Source: a virus (taxonomy: Duplodnaviria > Heunggongvirae > Uroviricota > Caudoviricetes). From it: 32,881 nt of DNA. Below, one piece after another: positions 1-32,881 of this stretch. The notes under the pieces were generated by a model, which did no database searches, was not told the origin of the DNA, and worked only from the letters and a program-made list of their open reading frames with translations. Where the stretch lies: the IMG/VR virus record IMGVR_UViG_2579778650_000028, one strand, 5' to 3'. The stretch's first letter is position 1. Each line of letters begins with the position of its first letter. The position numbers were made by a program, and so were the translations under genes.

Positions 1-237
1 ATGATGTCTATAAATGAAGTTGTTAAACAGGACTGGCACCCCGCGCATGTTGTCGCGGCGGTGCATGTAAAAGGTTTTACTTTACGCTCTCTGTCCATTG
101 AAGCCGGTTTAAACCAGGATTCTTTAAAGAATGCCCTGTACCGCAAATGCCCAAAATATGAGCGCATTATTGCTGATGCTATTGGTGTTGCGCCGGAGGA
201 GATCTGGCCCAGCCGTTACGCTCGTAAGGTGGCATAA
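1..237 (+). CDS. ner: Ner-like DNA-binding transcriptional regulator (Ner/Nlp HTH family), 78 aa
   Basis: ORF begins at window base 1. Ner/Nlp-type signature (DWHPAHVVAAV...LRSLS...NALYRKCPK.ERIIADAIGV.PEEIWPSRY) and position directly upstream of the transposase gene. Sequence is not the Mu Ner as I recall it, so likely a D108-like or other immunity variant. Confidence 0.85.
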   Translation: MMSINEVVKQDWHPAHVVAAVHVKGFTLRSLSIEAGLNQDSLKNALYRKCPKYERIIADAIGVAPEEIWPSRYARKVA

Positions 238-239
238 AA

Positions 240-2333
240 ATGTTTGTGTCAGTTAATGAGCTTGTAGGGCTACCGGGTATGCCGGGAACTGCGCAAGGGG
301 TGCGGTATTCCATAAGGAAACTGGCCTCATCTGAGCATTTCAGGCGCAAACGTGCGGGTTCAAAAACCATTGAATACAGCATCGACTGCCTCCCTCCGGT
401 TACACAACGGGCGTTACGTGAGCGCCATGTAGCTCAACTGATGGCAACCGCCCCGCAGGAGATAACTACCCAGCCTCCTGTAAAGCGTGAACGCAAACAA
501 AATGTTGTACAGCCTGTTGAGGCATATCGCGGTTCGCCACAATTGGTAGAAGAGCGTCTGAATGCGCTTACGGAAAATCAACGTAAAGTTGCAGAAGCGC
601 GTATTGCTCTTGTCTGTGAAGTTCTACGAATTAGCCAGGAGCCGGGATTCAGTTGTGCCAGCGCTATACGTTTTATTGTGTCGCGGTTAGCGCAGGGTAA
701 CCTGGAAGAACGCCTGGAATCTTTGGTCATTACTGCTAATGCCCGTAAAGGGAAAGAGCGAACTCTGAGCGCAATTACGCTCAAACGTTGGATAGCTGCG
801 TTTAACAAAGCACAGAATGCCGCAGAACGATTGCTGTTACTGGCACCAGGAAAGCGCGACGAAATAAAACCGGAAGAAATTAGCTGGCTGCCTGAATTTC
901 TGGCGCAGTATCGTCAGGCTAACGGCAGGCCTATGTCAGAAGCATACGAGGATTTTGTCGCTGATTGGCAGCGTCGCCATGCGGACGAACCATACATGCT
1001 GGAGGTGATGCCTTCCTATGATGTTGTCCGGTATGCCATGAAAAAACTGCCGGAAGTGGTGAAACAAAAAGGGCGCGTTACCGGCAGTGAATACCGTCAG
1101 CTTGAAGGATTCACCCGCCGCGACTGGACAGCTATGCCGGTGAATTATGTCTGGATTGGTGACGGTCACGGTATGAAGCTGAAATGTGCGCATCCGGTTC
1201 ACGGGCGTCCATTTTCACCGGAAGTTACGTTTGTGATCGACGGTGGAACCCGGTTTGTGGTTGGCTGGAGTCTTGATCTTGCGGAGAACGTGTTCGCTGT
1301 TGCCGGGGCGATACAACACGGCATTCGCAATCACGGAAAACCATTCCTGTATTACTCGGATAATGGTTCCGGTGAAACGGCAGATATGCTGGATAAAGAG
1401 ATCGTCGGGATTCTGCCCCGCCTGGGGATTAACCACCCCACTGGTATTGCGGGAAATCCGCAGGGACGCGGCATTATTGAGCGCCTGAACCGGACGTTAC
1501 CGATGCGTATAGCAAGGAGGTATCGCACCTATTTCGGCAAGGGGGCTGACCGGGAATCGTTGCGAGTACTTAATCGTGATCTGCGTTCAGCGTTTAATGC
1601 CCTGCAACAGGACAAGCCACTGAGCGCCCGTCAGAAAGCCGCAATGCGCGAGCTGCCGTCTTGGTCAGAACTGATTGAGGCTATCCGTGAGGGGGTGGAG
1701 TGGTACAACAACCGCCCACATTCTGAATTGCCGATGAAACCAAACGGAAAACATTACAGCCCGGCAGAGTTCAGAAAAAAACGCTTAGCGGAAGAAGACA
1801 CTGAAATTGAGTGGCTGAGTGATATTGAGCTGCGTGACATGTTCCGCCCGATGGTGGAGCGTCCGGTAAGACGCTGCGAAATCCAGTGGCTGAACAATAT
1901 TTACTACGCGCCAGAGCTACGTGATGAACATGGTCGCAAGGTACTTATCAGCTATGACATTCACGATGCCGAGCGAATTACGGTACGCCGTAAGGACGGT
2001 AGCTTTATCTGTGAGGCGATATGGAACGGCAATAAACGCGCAGCCTTTCCTGTTACGGCTGAATATCACAAACAACAGCAACGTATTAAAGGAATGCGCA
2101 AGCGTGCTGAGGAAAAAATACGTGATGCTGAGGATGAAGGTATTCAGGTTATTGAACAAAAAACGATAGAACCCTGGCTGGATAATGTTTATCGCCCTGT
2201 TGGTAATGTGGTGACCGTTCAGCCGTTGAGGTGTGAGGAAGAGCATGATGATGAATACGAAACTGAGCGTGATGAATATCTGAATCATTCGCTGGATATT
2301 CTGGAACAGAACAGACGTAAAAAAGCCATTTAA
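240..2333 (+). CDS. A: Mu-type DDE transposase MuA, 697 aa
   Basis: Long ORF after ner with RBS-like AAGGTGG upstream. C-terminus ...DDEYETERDEYLNHSLDILEQNRRKKAI matches my recollection of the Mu A C-terminal tail (MuB/ClpX interaction). N-terminal DNA-binding region diverges from Mu. Confidence 0.95.
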   Translation: MFVSVNELVGLPGMPGTAQGVRYSIRKLASSEHFRRKRAGSKTIEYSIDCLPPVTQRALRERHVAQLMATAPQEITTQPPVKRERKQNVVQPVEAYRGSPQLVEERLNALTENQRKVAEARIALVCEVLRISQEPGFSCASAIRFIVSRLAQGNLEERLESLVITANARKGKERTLSAITLKRWIAAFNKAQNAAERLLLLAPGKRDEIKPEEISWLPEFLAQYRQANGRPMSEAYEDFVADWQRRHADEPYMLEVMPSYDVVRYAMKKLPEVVKQKGRVTGSEYRQLEGFTRRDWTAMPVNYVWIGDGHGMKLKCAHPVHGRPFSPEVTFVIDGGTRFVVGWSLDLAENVFAVAGAIQHGIRNHGKPFLYYSDNGSGETADMLDKEIVGILPRLGINHPTGIAGNPQGRGIIERLNRTLPMRIARRYRTYFGKGADRESLRVLNRDLRSAFNALQQDKPLSARQKAAMRELPSWSELIEAIREGVEWYNNRPHSELPMKPNGKHYSPAEFRKKRLAEEDTEIEWLSDIELRDMFRPMVERPVRRCEIQWLNNIYYAPELRDEHGRKVLISYDIHDAERITVRRKDGSFICEAIWNGNKRAAFPVTAEYHKQQQRIKGMRKRAEEKIRDAEDEGIQVIEQKTIEPWLDNVYRPVGNVVTVQPLRCEEEHDDEYETERDEYLNHSLDILEQNRRKKAI

Positions 2334-2371
2334 TTAACGTTTAAACAAAATTTAATTACGAGGTTATTCAG

Positions 2372-3310
2372 ATGAATATTTCCGATATTCGCGCAGAACT
2401 GCGCACGCTTGTAGAAAATGAAGAAACCACCTTTAAACAAATTGCTCTTGAGAGCGGGCTTTCTACCGGAACTATCAGTAGTTTTATCAATGATAAGTAC
2501 AACGGGGATAACGAGCGTGTTTCACAAATTCTGCAACGCTGGCTGGAAAAATATCATGCAGTTGCAGAACTACCTGAGCCGCCCCGCTTTGTGGAAACGC
2601 AGACGGTAAAACAAATCTGGACAAGTATGCGTTTTGCCAGCCTGACTGAAAGTATTGCTGTTGTATGTGGCAATCCTGGTGTGGGTAAAACCGAAGCGGC
2701 CCGTGAATATCGCCGCACCAATAACAATGTCTGGATGATCACCATTACGCCATCCTGTGCCAGCGTTCTGGAATGTCTTACTGAACTGGCGTTTGAGCTG
2801 GGAATGAATGACGCACCACGCCGTAAAGGGCCGCTCTCCCGCGCCCTGCGACGTCGCCTTGAAGGTACACAGGGGCTGGTTATCATCGACGAAGCTGATC
2901 ATCTTGGTGCCGAGGTTCTGGAAGAACTCCGCCTGTTACAGGAATCAACCCGTATTGGCCTTGTGCTGATGGGAAATCACCGGGTTTATTCAAATATGAC
3001 GGGGGGTAACAGAACGGTTGAATTTGCCCGTCTGTTTTCCCGTATTGCAAAGCGCACTGCAATTAATAAAACCAAAAAAGCCGATGTAAAAGCTATTGCG
3101 GATGCCTGGCAGATTAACGGTGAAAAAGAACTGGAGTTATTACAGCAGATTGCGCAGAAACCAGGTGCGCTTCGCATTCTGAATCATTCACTTCGCCTTG
3201 CCGCCATGACGGCTCACGGTAAAGGTGAGCGTGTTAACGAAGATTATCTGCGTCAGGCTTTCCGTGAATTAGACCTGGACGTTGATATTTCAACGCTGCT
3301 GCGTAATTAA
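2372..3310 (+). CDS. B: Mu B ATP-dependent target DNA activator (AAA+), 312 aa
   Basis: Walker A GNPGVGKTEA and Walker B LVIIDEADHL. Length and sequence match Mu B as recalled; GAGG RBS 8 nt upstream. Confidence 0.95.
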   Translation: MNISDIRAELRTLVENEETTFKQIALESGLSTGTISSFINDKYNGDNERVSQILQRWLEKYHAVAELPEPPRFVETQTVKQIWTSMRFASLTESIAVVCGNPGVGKTEAAREYRRTNNNVWMITITPSCASVLECLTELAFELGMNDAPRRKGPLSRALRRRLEGTQGLVIIDEADHLGAEVLEELRLLQESTRIGLVLMGNHRVYSNMTGGNRTVEFARLFSRIAKRTAINKTKKADVKAIADAWQINGEKELELLQQIAQKPGALRILNHSLRLAAMTAHGKGERVNEDYLRQAFRELDLDVDISTLLRN

Positions 3311-3325
3311 GAAGGAGAAGAAATT

Positions 3326-3797: not shown

Positions 3798-4067
3798 ATG
3801 GCAAAAGTTATCTTTGAGTTTACATGGCTGGAAAGTAGTGACGGTTGCAATGGGCGCAGAGAAGTTCTGGATGCAAAAGCATGTCTTGCAGATATCTCGC
3901 CAACGGAAAATATCGGGCCTCATGATTTACTGGCAAATATCGTCCTGACTATGGCTCCTGAAATTATTAAAAAGGCCAAAGATGAGATGCTGACCACTAT
4001 GAAGAAAGTGGGTATGGAAGCTGAATGTGATTTAGTACCACATCCGGTGAATGCGGTTAAACATTAA
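3798..4067 (+). CDS. hypothetical early protein, 89 aa
   Basis: Strong RBS TAAGGAGA upstream of ATG; co-oriented and tightly packed in the early operon. Confidence 0.55.
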   Translation: MAKVIFEFTWLESSDGCNGRREVLDAKACLADISPTENIGPHDLLANIVLTMAPEIIKKAKDEMLTTMKKVGMEAECDLVPHPVNAVKH

Positions 4068-4087
4068 TTCGCAAAGGAACGCTGACA

Positions 4088-6680: not shown

Positions 6681-6989
6681 ATGAATAATGGTGTATTTTC
6701 AAAATCAGAAGAGCTTGCCGCCCTGCTGATTGCCGGTGGTTTGCCGAAAAAAGAAGTGCATGACTTTGTGAATTTTGTATATGAGCCGTCTCATGAAAAA
6801 GCTATTGATGAGGTCATGGCGTACCGGTTTGGCATTATTGCTGAGTCACTGAGTCCTCACTGGATTATTGAAAATCTCCGCGCTATTGCTGATGGCAACG
6901 ATAAATCAGCAGCCGTTGCTGCACTGGATGTGTTACGGCAAATGAGTCTGAAATTTTATCCTGAATTTATTCTGAGGGCCGCAAAATGA
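6681..6989 (+). CDS. hypothetical early protein, about 102 aa
   Basis: ATG at 6681 directly after the upstream stop, with GAAGGTGAG upstream. Track ORF starts at GTG 6666. Confidence 0.5.
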   Translation: MNNGVFSKSEELAALLIAGGLPKKEVHDFVNFVYEPSHEKAIDEVMAYRFGIIAESLSPHWIIENLRAIADGNDKSAAVAALDVLRQMSLKFYPEFILRAAK

Positions 6990-8530: not shown

Positions 8531-8582
8531 ACGCCCTCAATATTCTGTTGTGACGATAAAACGTTCATGACAGGAGGGCAAC
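8531..8582 (+). promoter_or_regulatory. candidate Mor-dependent middle promoter (Pm) region
   Basis: Only intergenic DNA between the mor terminator and the next operon; Mu places Pm downstream of mor. No motif verified. Confidence 0.3.
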
Positions 8583-9143
8583 ATGCCTGAGTTTTCCCCT
8601 GCATTCCTTCATTCGCTGAATTTCGTTATACGCCCTGATGTTGAAGGTGGCTATGTTAATGATCCTGCCGACCGTGGCGGCGAAACGAAATACGGTATTT
8701 CTGACCGTCGCGACGGCGTTATTGATGGCAAAACCGATGTTAACGGTGACGGAAAACCTGATACCCGCATTAAGGATTTAACCCGCGAGCAGGCGGCGCA
8801 GATCTACTGGCGTGATTACTGGCTGGCGGCAAAGTGTAACGAATGGCCTGATGGCGTTTCCTTATTCGTTTTTGATGCTGCCGTTCAGCACGGTGTTAAA
8901 CGCGCGATTCAGATCCTCCAGGCGGCAGCAGGTGTTGATGATGATGGCATCGTCGGTAAAAACACACGCGCAGCCGTTCTGCGTGCCGATACTGACTGGC
9001 TGCTGTTGCAGTGCTTCCTGCGTCGTTCCCGCTATTACGCAGGGATTATCAAATCCAGTGCCTCGCAGGGGAAATATCTGAATGGCTGGTTTAACCGTCT
9101 GGATCTGCTCGCCAGCGCCTGTCGGGAGGTTCTGCATGGGTAA
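8583..9143 (+). CDS. GH108-family muramidase-like protein with C-terminal peptidoglycan-binding domain, 186 aa
   Basis: N-terminal EGGYVNDPADRGGETKYGI motif typical of glycoside hydrolase family 108, and DDGIVGKNTRAAV typical of the PG_binding_3 domain; strong AGGAGG RBS. Confidence 0.75.
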   Translation: MPEFSPAFLHSLNFVIRPDVEGGYVNDPADRGGETKYGISDRRDGVIDGKTDVNGDGKPDTRIKDLTREQAAQIYWRDYWLAAKCNEWPDGVSLFVFDAAVQHGVKRAIQILQAAAGVDDDGIVGKNTRAAVLRADTDWLLLQCFLRRSRYYAGIIKSSASQGKYLNGWFNRLDLLASACREVLHG

Positions 9144-9366
9144 AGGGTGGGATGCGTCCTTTCAGTTCGGCAGGCGTGAACGTTTACGACAGGAGGTATT
9201 ACATCGGGAGGCCGGAGGCCCACCACCAAAGCCAATGGATTACACAGGGCACGATGGCACCCACGGCAGTTATTACATGAAAGGCTGGCAGTCAGTTGAT
9301 ATGCCGGAAATTCTTCACCACTGTCAACGTTATAAGGAAAAATATTGTGTACAGAAAATTCAGTGA
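9136..9366 (+). CDS. hypothetical small protein, about 77 aa, overlapping the muramidase gene end
   Basis: ATG at 9136 overlaps the upstream stop by 8 nt, with GGGAGG 7 nt upstream. Confidence 0.4.
   Translation: MGKGWDASFQFGRRERLRQEVLHREAGGPPPKPMDYTGHDGTHGSYYMKGWQSVDMPEILHHCQRYKEKYCVQKIQ

Positions 9367-30973: not shown

Positions 30974-30974
<1 letters not shown>
30432..30974 (+). CDS. R: baseplate/tail-fibre attachment protein R (Mu gp48), 180 aa
   Basis: Overlaps the W stop; directly precedes the tail-fibre gene. Confidence 0.7.

Positions 30975-32881
<1,907 letters not shown>

What the first reader, a model, noticed from the sequence alone, without database searches (positions are those of the whole stretch)
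1..2333. Mosaic left end: Ner and the transposase N-terminus diverge from Mu while B, Gam and the transposase C-terminus look Mu-like
Mu and D108 differ in the repressor, ner and the 5' end of A (immunity and operator specificity) but are otherwise near-identical. This window shows that pattern, suggesting a D108-like or novel immunity variant on a Mu backbone. The window starts exactly at the ner ATG, so the repressor and operators are not visible.
Basis: partly seen in the sequence, partly recalled or inferred. Interest (0 to 1): 0.4.

Follow-up and report, generated by a model that had tools for sequence, protein, structure and literature searches.

The report
Chimeric transposase in a Mu-like prophage
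This Mu-like prophage has swapped almost its whole transposase for a distantly related one, but kept the last 28 amino acids of Mu's enzyme next to Mu's B gene, which suggests that this short tail is what couples a transposase to its partner protein.

Summary

- **Observation.** Window 1-2240 (ner and A codons 1-669) has no nucleotide similarity to Mu or D108. From 2241 onward the window is 94-99% identical to them.
- **Proteins.** The A body is about 24% identical to MuA. Only the last 28 residues (aa 670-697, DDEYETERDEYLNHSLDILEQNRRKKAI) are Mu's. B is 99.4% and Gam 100% identical to Mu.
- **Not the D108 pattern.** Mu and D108 stop diverging at A codon ~64.
- **Joint.** It lies in an 8-nt microhomology, GAGC(A/G)TGA, at 2241-2248.
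- **Parent lineage.** Sister E. coli prophages (strains S6, E300082) carry the same A body (96%) with a different tail and a different B (41-44% to MuB).
- **Linkage.** In 82 distinct A/B pairs, tail types map one-to-one onto B types, while A bodies reassort. "A-tail + B" therefore behaves as a cassette, consistent with MuA's C-terminus binding MuB and ClpX.
- **Full-length copies.** They also carry non-Mu ends: TA termini, ATTTGATAC sites, 4-bp target duplications and a CI-type repressor.
- **Activity.** The same chimera sits at different sites in five complete E. coli genomes and in the plaque-forming Yersinia phages vB_YpM_5/6.

It is a new variant of a known kind, of moderate interest.

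The parts
1..237 (+). ner: a 78-aa Ner-family winged-HTH regulator of a third specificity type.
   Evidence: ORF. Pfam HTH_35, E 2.9e-25. 46% identical to Mu Ner and 48% to D108 Ner. No nucleotide similarity to Mu or D108.
240..2246 (+). Transposase A body, codons 1-669. It is a distant MuA homologue of the 'S6-type' lineage.
   Evidence: About 24% identical to MuA and 96% to the A of E. coli S6 and E300082 prophages. Full-length collinear profile alignment to MuA, 99.6% probability. Pfam Mu-transpos_C at aa 532-592, E 1.9e-18; weak HTH_Tnp_Mu_1 and rve; no DDE_2 or HTH_Tnp_Mu_2.
243..428 (+). N-terminal domain of A (aa 2-63) resembling MuA I-alpha, the enhancer-binding winged helix.
   Evidence: phmmer hit to PDB 1TNS (MuA I-alpha), E 5.3e-5. 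BLASTP 36.5% identity to MuA aa 3-65.
1152..1529 (+). Catalytic core region of A, holding the presumed DDE residues D308, D374 and E414.
   Evidence: D308 and D374 align with MuA D269 and D336. E414 (IIER) is invariant among six relatives. Retroviral integrase cores match aa 362-424.
2241..2248 (+). Recombination joint: the microhomology GAGC(A/G)TGA shared by the two parental lineages.
   Evidence: Three-way nucleotide alignment of window, S6/E300082 and Mu/D108. The last S6-type informative base is 2245 and the first Mu-type informative base is 2249.
2247..2333 (+). Mu-derived tail of A, codons 670-697 (DDEYETERDEYLNHSLDILEQNRRKKAI) plus the stop. It equals MuA residues 636-663, the presumed MuB- and ClpX-binding peptide.
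   Evidence: Identical to Mu at protein level. Nucleotides match Mu from 2247. Tail type co-varies 1:1 with B type in 82 A/B pairs.
2334..2371 (+). A-B intergenic spacer, identical to Mu.
   Evidence: Alignment.
2372..3310 (+). B: the MuB AAA+ target-selection ATPase, travelling with the A tail as one cassette.
   Evidence: 99.4% identical to MuB. Pfam Phage-MuB_C, E 5e-34, and AAA_22. Against the S6 prophage, only window 2224-3320 is unrelated, flanked by 94-96% identity on both sides.

Best explanation
The window's left end is a natural recombinant transposition module.

**Structure (shown).**
- ner and codons 1-669 of the transposase come from a second lineage of E. coli Mu-like prophages, called 'S6-type' here.
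- That enzyme is only about 24% identical to MuA, although it aligns with MuA along its whole length.
- At an 8-nt microhomology in the acidic linker (2241-2248) the gene switches to Mu sequence. The protein therefore ends in MuA's last 28 residues.
- Mu's spacer, Mu's B gene and the rest of a Mu-type genome follow.

**Mechanism (inferred).**
- The body provides everything that touches phage DNA. This includes the I-alpha-like enhancer-binding domain, the end-binding region and a DDE core (D308, D374, E414).
- In full-length copies the body acts on its own kind of ends. These have TA termini, three ATTTGATAC sites per end laid out like Mu's L1-L3 and R1-R3, and 4-bp target duplications.
- The 28-aa tail is a flexibly attached adaptor. 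It docks the enzyme onto the cognate AAA+ partner MuB for target capture, activation and target immunity.
- Through its terminal RRKKAI the tail also docks onto host ClpX, which disassembles the transpososome.
- Because the tail and B must match, they are inherited and exchanged together as a ~1.1-kb cassette (window ~2241-3320). The body, the ends and the repressor assort independently of that cassette.

**Status.** The recombinant structure, its parents and the tail/B linkage are shown. The physical tail-B and tail-ClpX contacts in this chimera are inferred from what is established for MuA.
For: **Structure**
- No nucleotide similarity to Mu or D108 before 2241, and 94-99% after it.
- The last 28 aa are identical to MuA, while the body is ~24% identical.
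- The crossover maps to 2241-2248.
- S6 and E300082 prophages have a 96% identical body but their own tail (...ERDFRLGLQKLVAIQEQDDPLA) and a B that is 41-44% identical to MuB.
- S6 differs from the window only across 2224-3320.

**Linkage**
- In 15 phages, tail-versus-B identity gives Spearman 0.85 (Mantel p 2e-4). Body-versus-B gives 0.19 (p 0.13).
- In 82 distinct A/B pairs, six tail clusters map 1:1 onto six B clusters with no exception.
- The Mu-family tail/B sits on four body clusters, and the window's body clade carries three tail/B types.
- The Tongde/A21 phages join a third body (57% identical) to the Mu tail and B, with Mu similarity starting 5 nt from the window's joint.
- All these phages share E. 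coli and its ClpX. Tail divergence therefore tracks B, not the host.

**Function**
- The same chimera lies at different chromosomal sites (ppsR, glpT, ycjO/P region) in complete E. coli genomes.
- It is also present in Yersinia phages vB_YpM_5/6 (98.6% identical), which were isolated as infective phages (PMC10434027).
- D308, D374 and E414 are conserved.

**Matched DNA sites**.

**Literature**
- MuA subdomain III-beta mediates the MuB and ClpX interactions (PMC3362531, PMC3145075).
- The MuA C-terminus stimulates MuB ATP hydrolysis, and the TnsB C-terminal hook binds TnsC through a flexible linker (PMC9371665).
Against: - No binding or activity assay exists for this chimera.
- The tail is only 84 nt and lies 38 nt from B. 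Perfect tail/B co-segregation could therefore be plain physical linkage. Joints may also be limited to the few spots where very divergent A genes share microhomology.
- Biochemistry defined the MuB-interaction region as the larger III-beta subdomain (about MuA 605-663). Only 636-663 is retained here, so other contacts may lie in the body.
- E414 could not be aligned unambiguously with MuA E392.
- The 82 pairs come from related enterobacterial prophages and are not phylogenetically independent.
- The ends, the repressor and the target duplications were read from near-identical prophages, not from the window itself.
Confidence: 0.8

Rival explanations
1. D108-like immunity variant. Only the repressor, ner and the operator-binding N-terminus of A differ, changing immunity and enhancer specificity on an otherwise Mu transposase.
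For: Ner is a third type (46-48% identical). The left end is non-Mu. The I-alpha-like N-terminus is recognisable.
Against: Divergence runs to codon 669 of 697, against about codon 64 in Mu versus D108. The catalytic and end-binding parts are ~24% identical to MuA. Both phage ends carry different binding sites. The same ner and A occur with two repressor alleles that are 56% identical, so A does not co-vary with c as it does in Mu and D108.
Confidence: 0.03
2. The chimera is real, but the joint's position has no functional meaning. The tail stays with B only because the two are adjacent, and the crossover fell where the only usable microhomology happened to be.
For: The joint sits in an 8-nt shared motif inside a repetitive acidic stretch. 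The tail and B are 38 nt apart. The A bodies share no nucleotide similarity that could support other crossovers.
Against: There are no exceptions in 82 pairs across six tail/B types, including pairs as diverged as 60-80%. At least three independent body-to-tail/B combinations all break just upstream of the tail. No joint is seen in the A-B spacer or at the start of B among the 60 of 88 Mu-type hits listed, or the 16 S6-type hits. The MuA C-terminus is experimentally the MuB/ClpX interface (PMC3362531, PMC9371665).
Confidence: 0.15
3. Assembly or prophage-calling artefact: the junction is a mis-join of two different Mu-like prophages.
For: The window begins exactly at a gene start and ends inside an IS element. 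Many IMG/VR prophage contigs begin at the same ner ATG. The window's limits are therefore computational.
Against: The identical junction is present in five complete E. coli chromosomes from different sources and countries (different hosts where recorded). It is also in two independently sequenced Yersinia phages. The reading frame is intact across the joint.
Confidence: 0.01

Closest known systems
Bacteriophage Mu (NC_000929): MuA, MuB and Ner
   Same: Gene order ner-A-B-kil...gam. B is 99.4% and Gam 100% identical. Nucleotide identity is 94-99% from window 2241 to 31526. The last 28 aa of A are identical. The domain order of A is the same (hhalign 99.6%). The layout of three sites per end, with a long L1-L2 spacer, is also shared.
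   Different: The A body is ~24% identical, with no Pfam DDE_2 or HTH_Tnp_Mu_2 match. Ner is 46% identical. In full-length copies the ends have ATTTGATAC sites instead of the CGAAA-type consensus, TA rather than TG/CA termini, 4-bp rather than 5-bp target duplications, and an HTH_3/CI-type repressor.
Bacteriophage D108 and SfMu (the classical Mu immunity heterologues)
   Same: A mosaic left end on a Mu backbone, with a different Ner.
   Different: In D108 and SfMu only c, ner and about 64 codons of A differ, and the ends are Mu-like. Here 669 of 697 codons and both ends differ (PMC4406740).
Yersinia phages vB_YpM_5 and vB_YpM_6 (MT374853, MT374854)
   Same: 98.6-99% nucleotide identity over window 1-31506, including the same chimeric A (99.4% aa identity). 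They are the same kind of phage.
   Different: Their A/B genes are annotated as hypothetical proteins, and the paper describing them does not analyse the transposase mosaic (PMC10434027). They carry the other repressor allele and lack the IS100 insertion.
S6-type E. coli Mu-like prophages (strains S6, E300082; the related Mu-like phage inserted in Stx phages, LC727895)
   Same: The same ner, A body (79-96%), ends and 4-bp duplications. Early genes from kil onward are Mu-like.
   Different: They have their own A tail (...DDPLA) and their own B (41-47% identical to MuB).
Tn7/CAST TnsB C-terminal hook binding the AAA+ regulator TnsC
   Same: A short C-terminal peptide on a flexible, poorly conserved linker recruits a Mu-like DDE transposase to its AAA+ target selector (PMC9371665).
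   Different: A different element family with no sequence similarity in the hook. The analogy is mechanistic only.

Membership tests
Muvirus (Mu/D108/SfMu group of transposable myophages) | Genome collinear with and highly similar to Mu from B through the head and tail genes. | tested here: met
   94-99% nucleotide identity for window 2241-31526, apart from a few short replaced patches. GenBank classifies the 99%-identical vB_YpM_5 as Muvirus.
Muvirus (Mu/D108/SfMu group of transposable myophages) | MuA-type transposase (Pfam DDE_2 plus HTH_Tnp_Mu_1 and HTH_Tnp_Mu_2). | tested here: not met
   Only a weak HTH_Tnp_Mu_1 match and Mu-transpos_C. No DDE_2 or HTH_Tnp_Mu_2, whereas MuA hits all four. 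The body is ~24% identical.
Muvirus (Mu/D108/SfMu group of transposable myophages) | Mu-type ends (TG...CA termini, CGAAA-type A-binding sites) and 5-bp target duplication. | tested here: not met
   Read in near-identical full prophages, not in the window. The ends are TATAGAG...CTTTA with ATTTGATAC sites. 4-bp duplications were found in 4 of 4 simple insertions. A related element is annotated with a 4-bp duplication.
D108-type immunity heterologue of Mu | Divergence from Mu limited to c, ner and the first ~64 codons of A. | tested here: not met
   Mu/D108 divergence ends at Mu nt 1518. In the window it ends at nt 2240, A codon 669.
Mu-family DDE transposases (MuA-like, RNase H fold) | Collinear homology to MuA, including the I-alpha domain and the C-terminal beta-barrel domain. 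| tested here: met
   hhalign 99.6% over 601 columns. 1TNS hit, E 5e-5. Mu-transpos_C, E 1.9e-18.
Mu-family DDE transposases (MuA-like, RNase H fold) | Catalytic D, D, E triad. | tested here: inconclusive
   D308 and D374 align with MuA D269 and D336. E414 is invariant in relatives, but it did not align to MuA E392 in the MAFFT or BLAST alignments.
Mu-family DDE transposases (MuA-like, RNase H fold) | The C-terminal peptide binds the cognate AAA+ partner (MuB) and ClpX. | not testable with these tools
   Supported only indirectly. The tail is identical to MuA 636-663 and tail and B co-vary 1:1.
MuB AAA+ transposition ATPase | AAA+ core plus the Phage-MuB_C domain, encoded directly downstream of A. 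| tested here: met
   Pfam Phage-MuB_C, E 5e-34, and AAA_22, E 2.5e-21. 99.4% identical to MuB.
Ner family (HTH_35) early-transcription regulators | A ~75-aa winged-HTH protein encoded directly upstream of A. | tested here: met
   HTH_35, E 2.9e-25. 46-48% identical to Mu and D108 Ner.

The most novel reading that the evidence does not exclude
The last ~28 residues of Mu-family transposases are a portable specificity adaptor that is sufficient on its own. Grafted onto a transposase that shares only ~24% identity with MuA, this tail fully couples the enzyme to MuB and ClpX, even though that enzyme recognises different ends, has TA termini and makes 4-bp instead of 5-bp staggered joins. If so, MuB activation does not depend on the geometry of the transpososome core. 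Enterobacterial transposable phages would then evolve by shuffling three independent modules: repressor; ner + A body + both ends; and A tail + B.
Probability: 0.45. Interest if true: 0.6.

Novelty: new variant of a known kind. Interest (0 to 1): 0.45.

Why it matters
**A ready-made domain swap.**
- How MuA talks to MuB is still structurally unresolved. Reviews and recent cryo-EM papers say no MuA-MuB complex structure is available (PMC9371665, PMC11292022).
- This natural chimera and its S6-type sisters differ only in the "tail + B" cassette.
- They narrow the partner-specificity determinant from the ~59-residue III-beta subdomain to 28 residues.
- They also provide matched and mismatched pairs that could be tested directly.

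**A wider range of enzymes for one AAA+ partner.**
- The Mu virion and its late genome can run on a very different transposase with different ends and a different target stagger.
- That is relevant to engineering Mu, Tn7 and CAST-type systems.

**Practical consequences.**
- Phages filed as "Muvirus" cannot be assumed to have Mu ends, Mu immunity or 5-bp duplications.
- This affects prophage boundary calling and the use of MuA-based tools.

Tried and rejected
- **Literature.** Three full-text searches found nothing relevant: Muvirus transposase mosaicism and the Stx-phage Mu insert returned no papers, and 4-bp duplications in Mu-like phages returned four that were not followed up. The paper on vB_YpM_5/6 only says the genomes are collinear "with several differences".
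- **Species-representative genomes.** The genome-contig scan gave only 10 loci. Three of them (L012, L013, L018) had a disrupted B or a frameshifted A and were dropped. The IMG/VR scan supplied the larger sample.
- **Solved structures.** phmmer against PDB sequences did not retrieve the MuA core or the transpososome (4FCY), only I-alpha and retroviral integrases. Homology of the body to MuA therefore rests on BLASTP, Pfam and hhalign.
- **Structure prediction.** Not run. Loci-derived sequences are not accepted as an alignment, and a single-sequence model would add little.
- **Catalytic glutamate.** The MAFFT alignment did not place a window glutamate opposite MuA E392, and the BLASTP alignment puts E414 two residues out of register, so that residue is called only 'probable'.
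- **A 5-bp duplication.** I tested whether one could be rescued by shifting the end definitions by one base. It cannot.
- **Mu pac site.** I could not verify its exact position from the papers available. Linking the conserved left-end island to pac is from memory only.
- **Rapid divergence instead of recombination.** Rejected, because the identity step is abrupt and a 94-96% identical parental lineage exists.
Full report
**1. What is at 1-2333**

- The window opens with ATGATG, the start of a 78-aa ORF (1-237).
- A 697-aa ORF follows at 240-2333, then a 312-aa ORF at 2372-3310.
- Pfam calls the first a Ner-type winged HTH (HTH_35, E 2.9e-25).
- The second matches Mu-transpos_C (aa 532-592, E 1.9e-18), with weak HTH_Tnp_Mu_1 (aa 7-78) and weak rve hits.
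- The third is MuB (Phage-MuB_C, E 5e-34, plus AAA_22).

**2. Checking the mosaic**

- blastn of the whole window against Mu (L001) and D108 (L002) finds nothing for 1-2240 at E<=1e-5.
- From 2241 to 31526 it finds 94-99% identity, interrupted only by a few short replaced patches. Megablast against all phage records shows the same start at 2241.
- At protein level:
  - Ner is 46% identical to Mu Ner and 48% to D108 Ner.
  - B is 99.4% identical to MuB.
  - Gam is 100% identical to Mu Gam.
- The transposase aligns with MuA end to end, but the body is only ~24% identical.
- Without the tail, BLASTP finds two segments: aa 1-63 at 36.5% (E 9e-8) and aa 305-661 at 23.8% (E 4.5e-7).
- Only the last 28 residues, DDEYETERDEYLNHSLDILEQNRRKKAI, are identical to MuA 636-663.
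- For comparison, Mu and D108 stop diverging at Mu nt 1518, about A codon 64, and are 97-100% identical (protein) thereafter.
The pattern is not D108-like.

**3. Where the foreign part comes from, and the exact joint**

- Five complete E. coli chromosomes hold window 1-2400 at 99-100%: FDAARGOS_1059, O111:H2 12A, WS1933D, JCKP02 and RM8082.
- Other genomes match only 1-2223 or 1-2256, at 91-94%.
- Two of these, strains S6 (L007) and E300082 (L008), were examined in detail:
  - Their A body is 96% identical to the window's.
  - They end in a different tail (...DEDYERDFRLGLQKLVAIQEQDDPLA).
  - They are followed by a different B, 41-44% identical to MuB.
- A three-way nucleotide alignment places the switch inside GAGC(A/G)TGA at window 2241-2248. 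The last S6-type informative base is 2245 and the first Mu-type informative base is 2249.
- The joint therefore lies between codon H669 and codon D670, in the acidic linker.
- Compared with S6, the window differs only across 2224-3320. Identity is 94% before that stretch and 96% after it, from just past the B stop.
- So "A tail + spacer + B" is a discrete ~1.1-kb cassette.

**4. Is the tail/B association more than a single accident?**

- A third A body occurs in Yersinia phage Tongde and E. coli A21 (99.3% identical to each other, 57% to the window).
  - It is also joined to a Mu tail and Mu B.
  - Its Mu similarity starts at Mu nt 3232, 5 nt from the window's joint.
- In 15 phages drawn from GenBank and species-representative genomes:
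  - Tail identity tracks B identity (Spearman 0.85, Mantel p 2e-4).
  - Body identity does not (0.19, p 0.13).
- Adding IMG/VR contigs gave 82 distinct A/B pairs:
  - Six tail clusters map one-to-one onto six B clusters, with no exception.
  - The Mu-family tail/B occurs on four body clusters.
  - The window's body clade carries three tail/B types.
  - One further combination is L034/L037: an 82% body with a 74% Mu-family tail and B. It looks like an older, independent pairing.
- In 5,426 complete E. coli genomes (the Mu-query figures rest on the 60 of 88 records listed):
  - The Mu-type B query hits either start in a Mu-type body or start exactly at the joint (query positions 328-333).
  - None starts at the A-B spacer or at the start of B.
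  - No S6-type tail/B is found behind a foreign body.

**5. What the rest of the element looks like (from near-identical full copies)**

The O111:H2 12A prophage (L004) is 99.98% identical to window 1-31503 and is 37,205 bp long, inserted in ppsR.

- *Ends.*
  - Aligning six left junctions and four right junctions fixes the ends as 5'-TATAGAGAGG...GCGCGCTTTA-3'.
  - Each end has three ATTTGATAC-type sites: +18, +122 and +164 on the left, and +18, +40 and +75 on the right.
  - This copies Mu's L1-L3 and R1-R3 layout but not Mu's sequence.
  - Mu similarity stops 97 bp before the right end.
  - Both ends are therefore matched to the foreign transposase body.
- *Target duplication.*
  - Four simple insertions show 4-bp duplications: CGCG, AGCC, TTAA and GGCA.
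  - No 5-bp reading fits.
  - A related element in an Stx phage is annotated with a 4-bp duplication.
  - Mu makes 5 bp (PMC3145075, PMC3362531).
- *Repressor.*
  - It is an HTH_3/CI-type protein, unrelated to Mu c apart from a short C-terminal motif.
  - It exists in two alleles, 56% identical, upstream of the same ner and A.
  - So here A's N-terminal domain does not co-vary with the repressor, as it does in Mu and D108.

**6. How it most likely works**

- *Shown.*
  - The element is a chimeric DDE transposase with a conserved D308 and D374 and a probable E414.
  - It has MuA's overall architecture (hhalign 99.6%).
  - It sits in a phage that is otherwise Mu.
  - It is found at different chromosomal sites and in plaque-forming phages (PMC10434027), so it is active.
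- *Established for Mu.*
  - Subdomain III-beta at MuA's C-terminus mediates the MuB and ClpX interactions (PMC3362531, PMC3145075).
  - It also stimulates MuB ATP hydrolysis (PMC9371665).
- *From my own knowledge, not verified here.*
  - ClpX recognises the extreme C-terminus (RRKKAI), and the MuB and ClpX sites overlap (Levchenko et al. 1997).
- *Inferred.*
  - The 28-aa tail is the adaptor that lets a foreign body use MuB and be remodelled by ClpX.
  - Selection for a matched tail and B explains why the joint lies just upstream of the tail, and why tail and B travel together.
  - All these phages live in enterobacteria with the same ClpX. The differences between tail types are therefore better explained by B than by the host.
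- *Analogy.*
  - The TnsB hook-TnsC arrangement, a short C-terminal peptide on a flexible linker, is the closest mechanistic parallel (PMC9371665).

**7. Rivals**

- The D108-like reading is refuted by the position of the boundary.
- Rapid divergence is refuted by the abrupt identity step and the existence of a parental lineage.
- An assembly artefact is refuted by five complete genomes and two sequenced phages.
- The serious rival is that tail/B linkage reflects only physical adjacency, with crossovers limited to the one microhomology.
  - The data (no exceptions, and several independent combinations all breaking just upstream of the tail) argue against it.
  - They cannot exclude it without experiments.

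**8. Novelty**

- The sequences are already public (vB_YpM_5/6 and RefSeq prophages) and are classified as Muvirus.
- The genes are annotated 'hypothetical', or carry only generic family names in RefSeq, and I found no analysis of the chimera.
- The underlying principles, phage mosaicism and the MuA C-terminus binding MuB, are known.
- I rate it a new variant of a known kind, with moderate interest.
- Its main value is as a natural domain swap that makes MuA-MuB specificity directly testable.
- The 4-bp duplication and TA ends show how far the enzyme differs from MuA.

Noticed in passing
window 31504-32881: An IS100 element (IS21 family; istA 340 aa at 31593-32615, NCBIfam transpos_IS21 E 5e-96) is inserted in tail-fibre gene S, about 20-25 nt inside the left boundary of the invertible G segment. 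S is truncated to 201 aa (30974-31579) and the window ends inside the IS. The 99.98%-identical prophage of E. coli 12A lacks the insertion. None of the 12 best-ranked E. coli records listed spans this junction, and a spanning record would have ranked first. The same IS sequence lies next to the left end in the Yersinia phage Tongde record (L009 1009-2274, 99%).
   Followed up: partly
L004 3039 and 40243; L006/L023; L007/L024; L008/L025; L011 1776-1779: Prophages with this transposase body have TA...TA termini (Mu has TG...CA). They are flanked by 4-bp, not 5-bp, target duplications in 4 of 4 simple insertions (CGCG, AGCC, TTAA, GGCA). The related Stx-phage insert has TG termini and an annotated 4-bp duplication.
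   Followed up: yes
L004 3069-3112 (left end, between the first and second A-binding sites): A ~43-nt island (AAAAATCCGGGAGGAAAGTGGATTAAACGGGATTTGATGGGAT) is ~85% identical to Mu nt 26-68, although the flanking binding sites are not Mu-like. In Mu this spacer binds HU (PMC3145075). From memory it also overlaps the pac site, which would fit the Mu-type terminase of these phages. The pac position could not be verified here.
   Followed up: partly
L004 3275-3820 versus L006/L007/L008/L003, upstream of ner: Two repressor alleles (56% identical; HTH_3/CI-type) sit upstream of the same ner and A. The switch point is about 55 bp before the ner ATG. Which allele the window's source carries cannot be seen.
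   Followed up: partly
L005 1539 and L022 (E. coli FDAARGOS_1059): This copy is flanked by fragments of different genes: a truncated ycjO/P-region permease on the left and a truncated SDR oxidoreductase on the right. There is no target duplication (ATTA versus GAGG). This suggests a transposition-associated deletion or inversion.
   Followed up: no
window 8549-9347 (GH108 gene at about 8583-9143): The Mu gp18-gp20 region is replaced. In the identical prophage a glycoside hydrolase family 108 protein is annotated there, in addition to the Mu-type endolysin further downstream.
   Followed up: no
window 6691-6982 and 3818-4072: Two small patches are absent from or divergent in Mu: an extra ~100-aa ORF at about 6681-6989, and a gp7 allele that matches D108 rather than Mu.
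   Followed up: no
window 1; L027, L029, L031, L033, L036, L038: Many IMG/VR prophage contigs of this family begin exactly at the ner ATG (A match at position 240). The window's start at a gene boundary is therefore an artefact of prophage calling, not a biological end. The true left end lies ~960 bp upstream.
   Followed up: partly
tails of S6-type A proteins (L007 8240-8327, L008, L011): The alternative tail family ends in ...DDPLA or ...NDPLA. This loosely resembles the ssrA-like (LAA) class of ClpX tags rather than MuA's RRKKAI class, so both tail families may carry a ClpX signal of different type. This is speculative.
   Followed up: no
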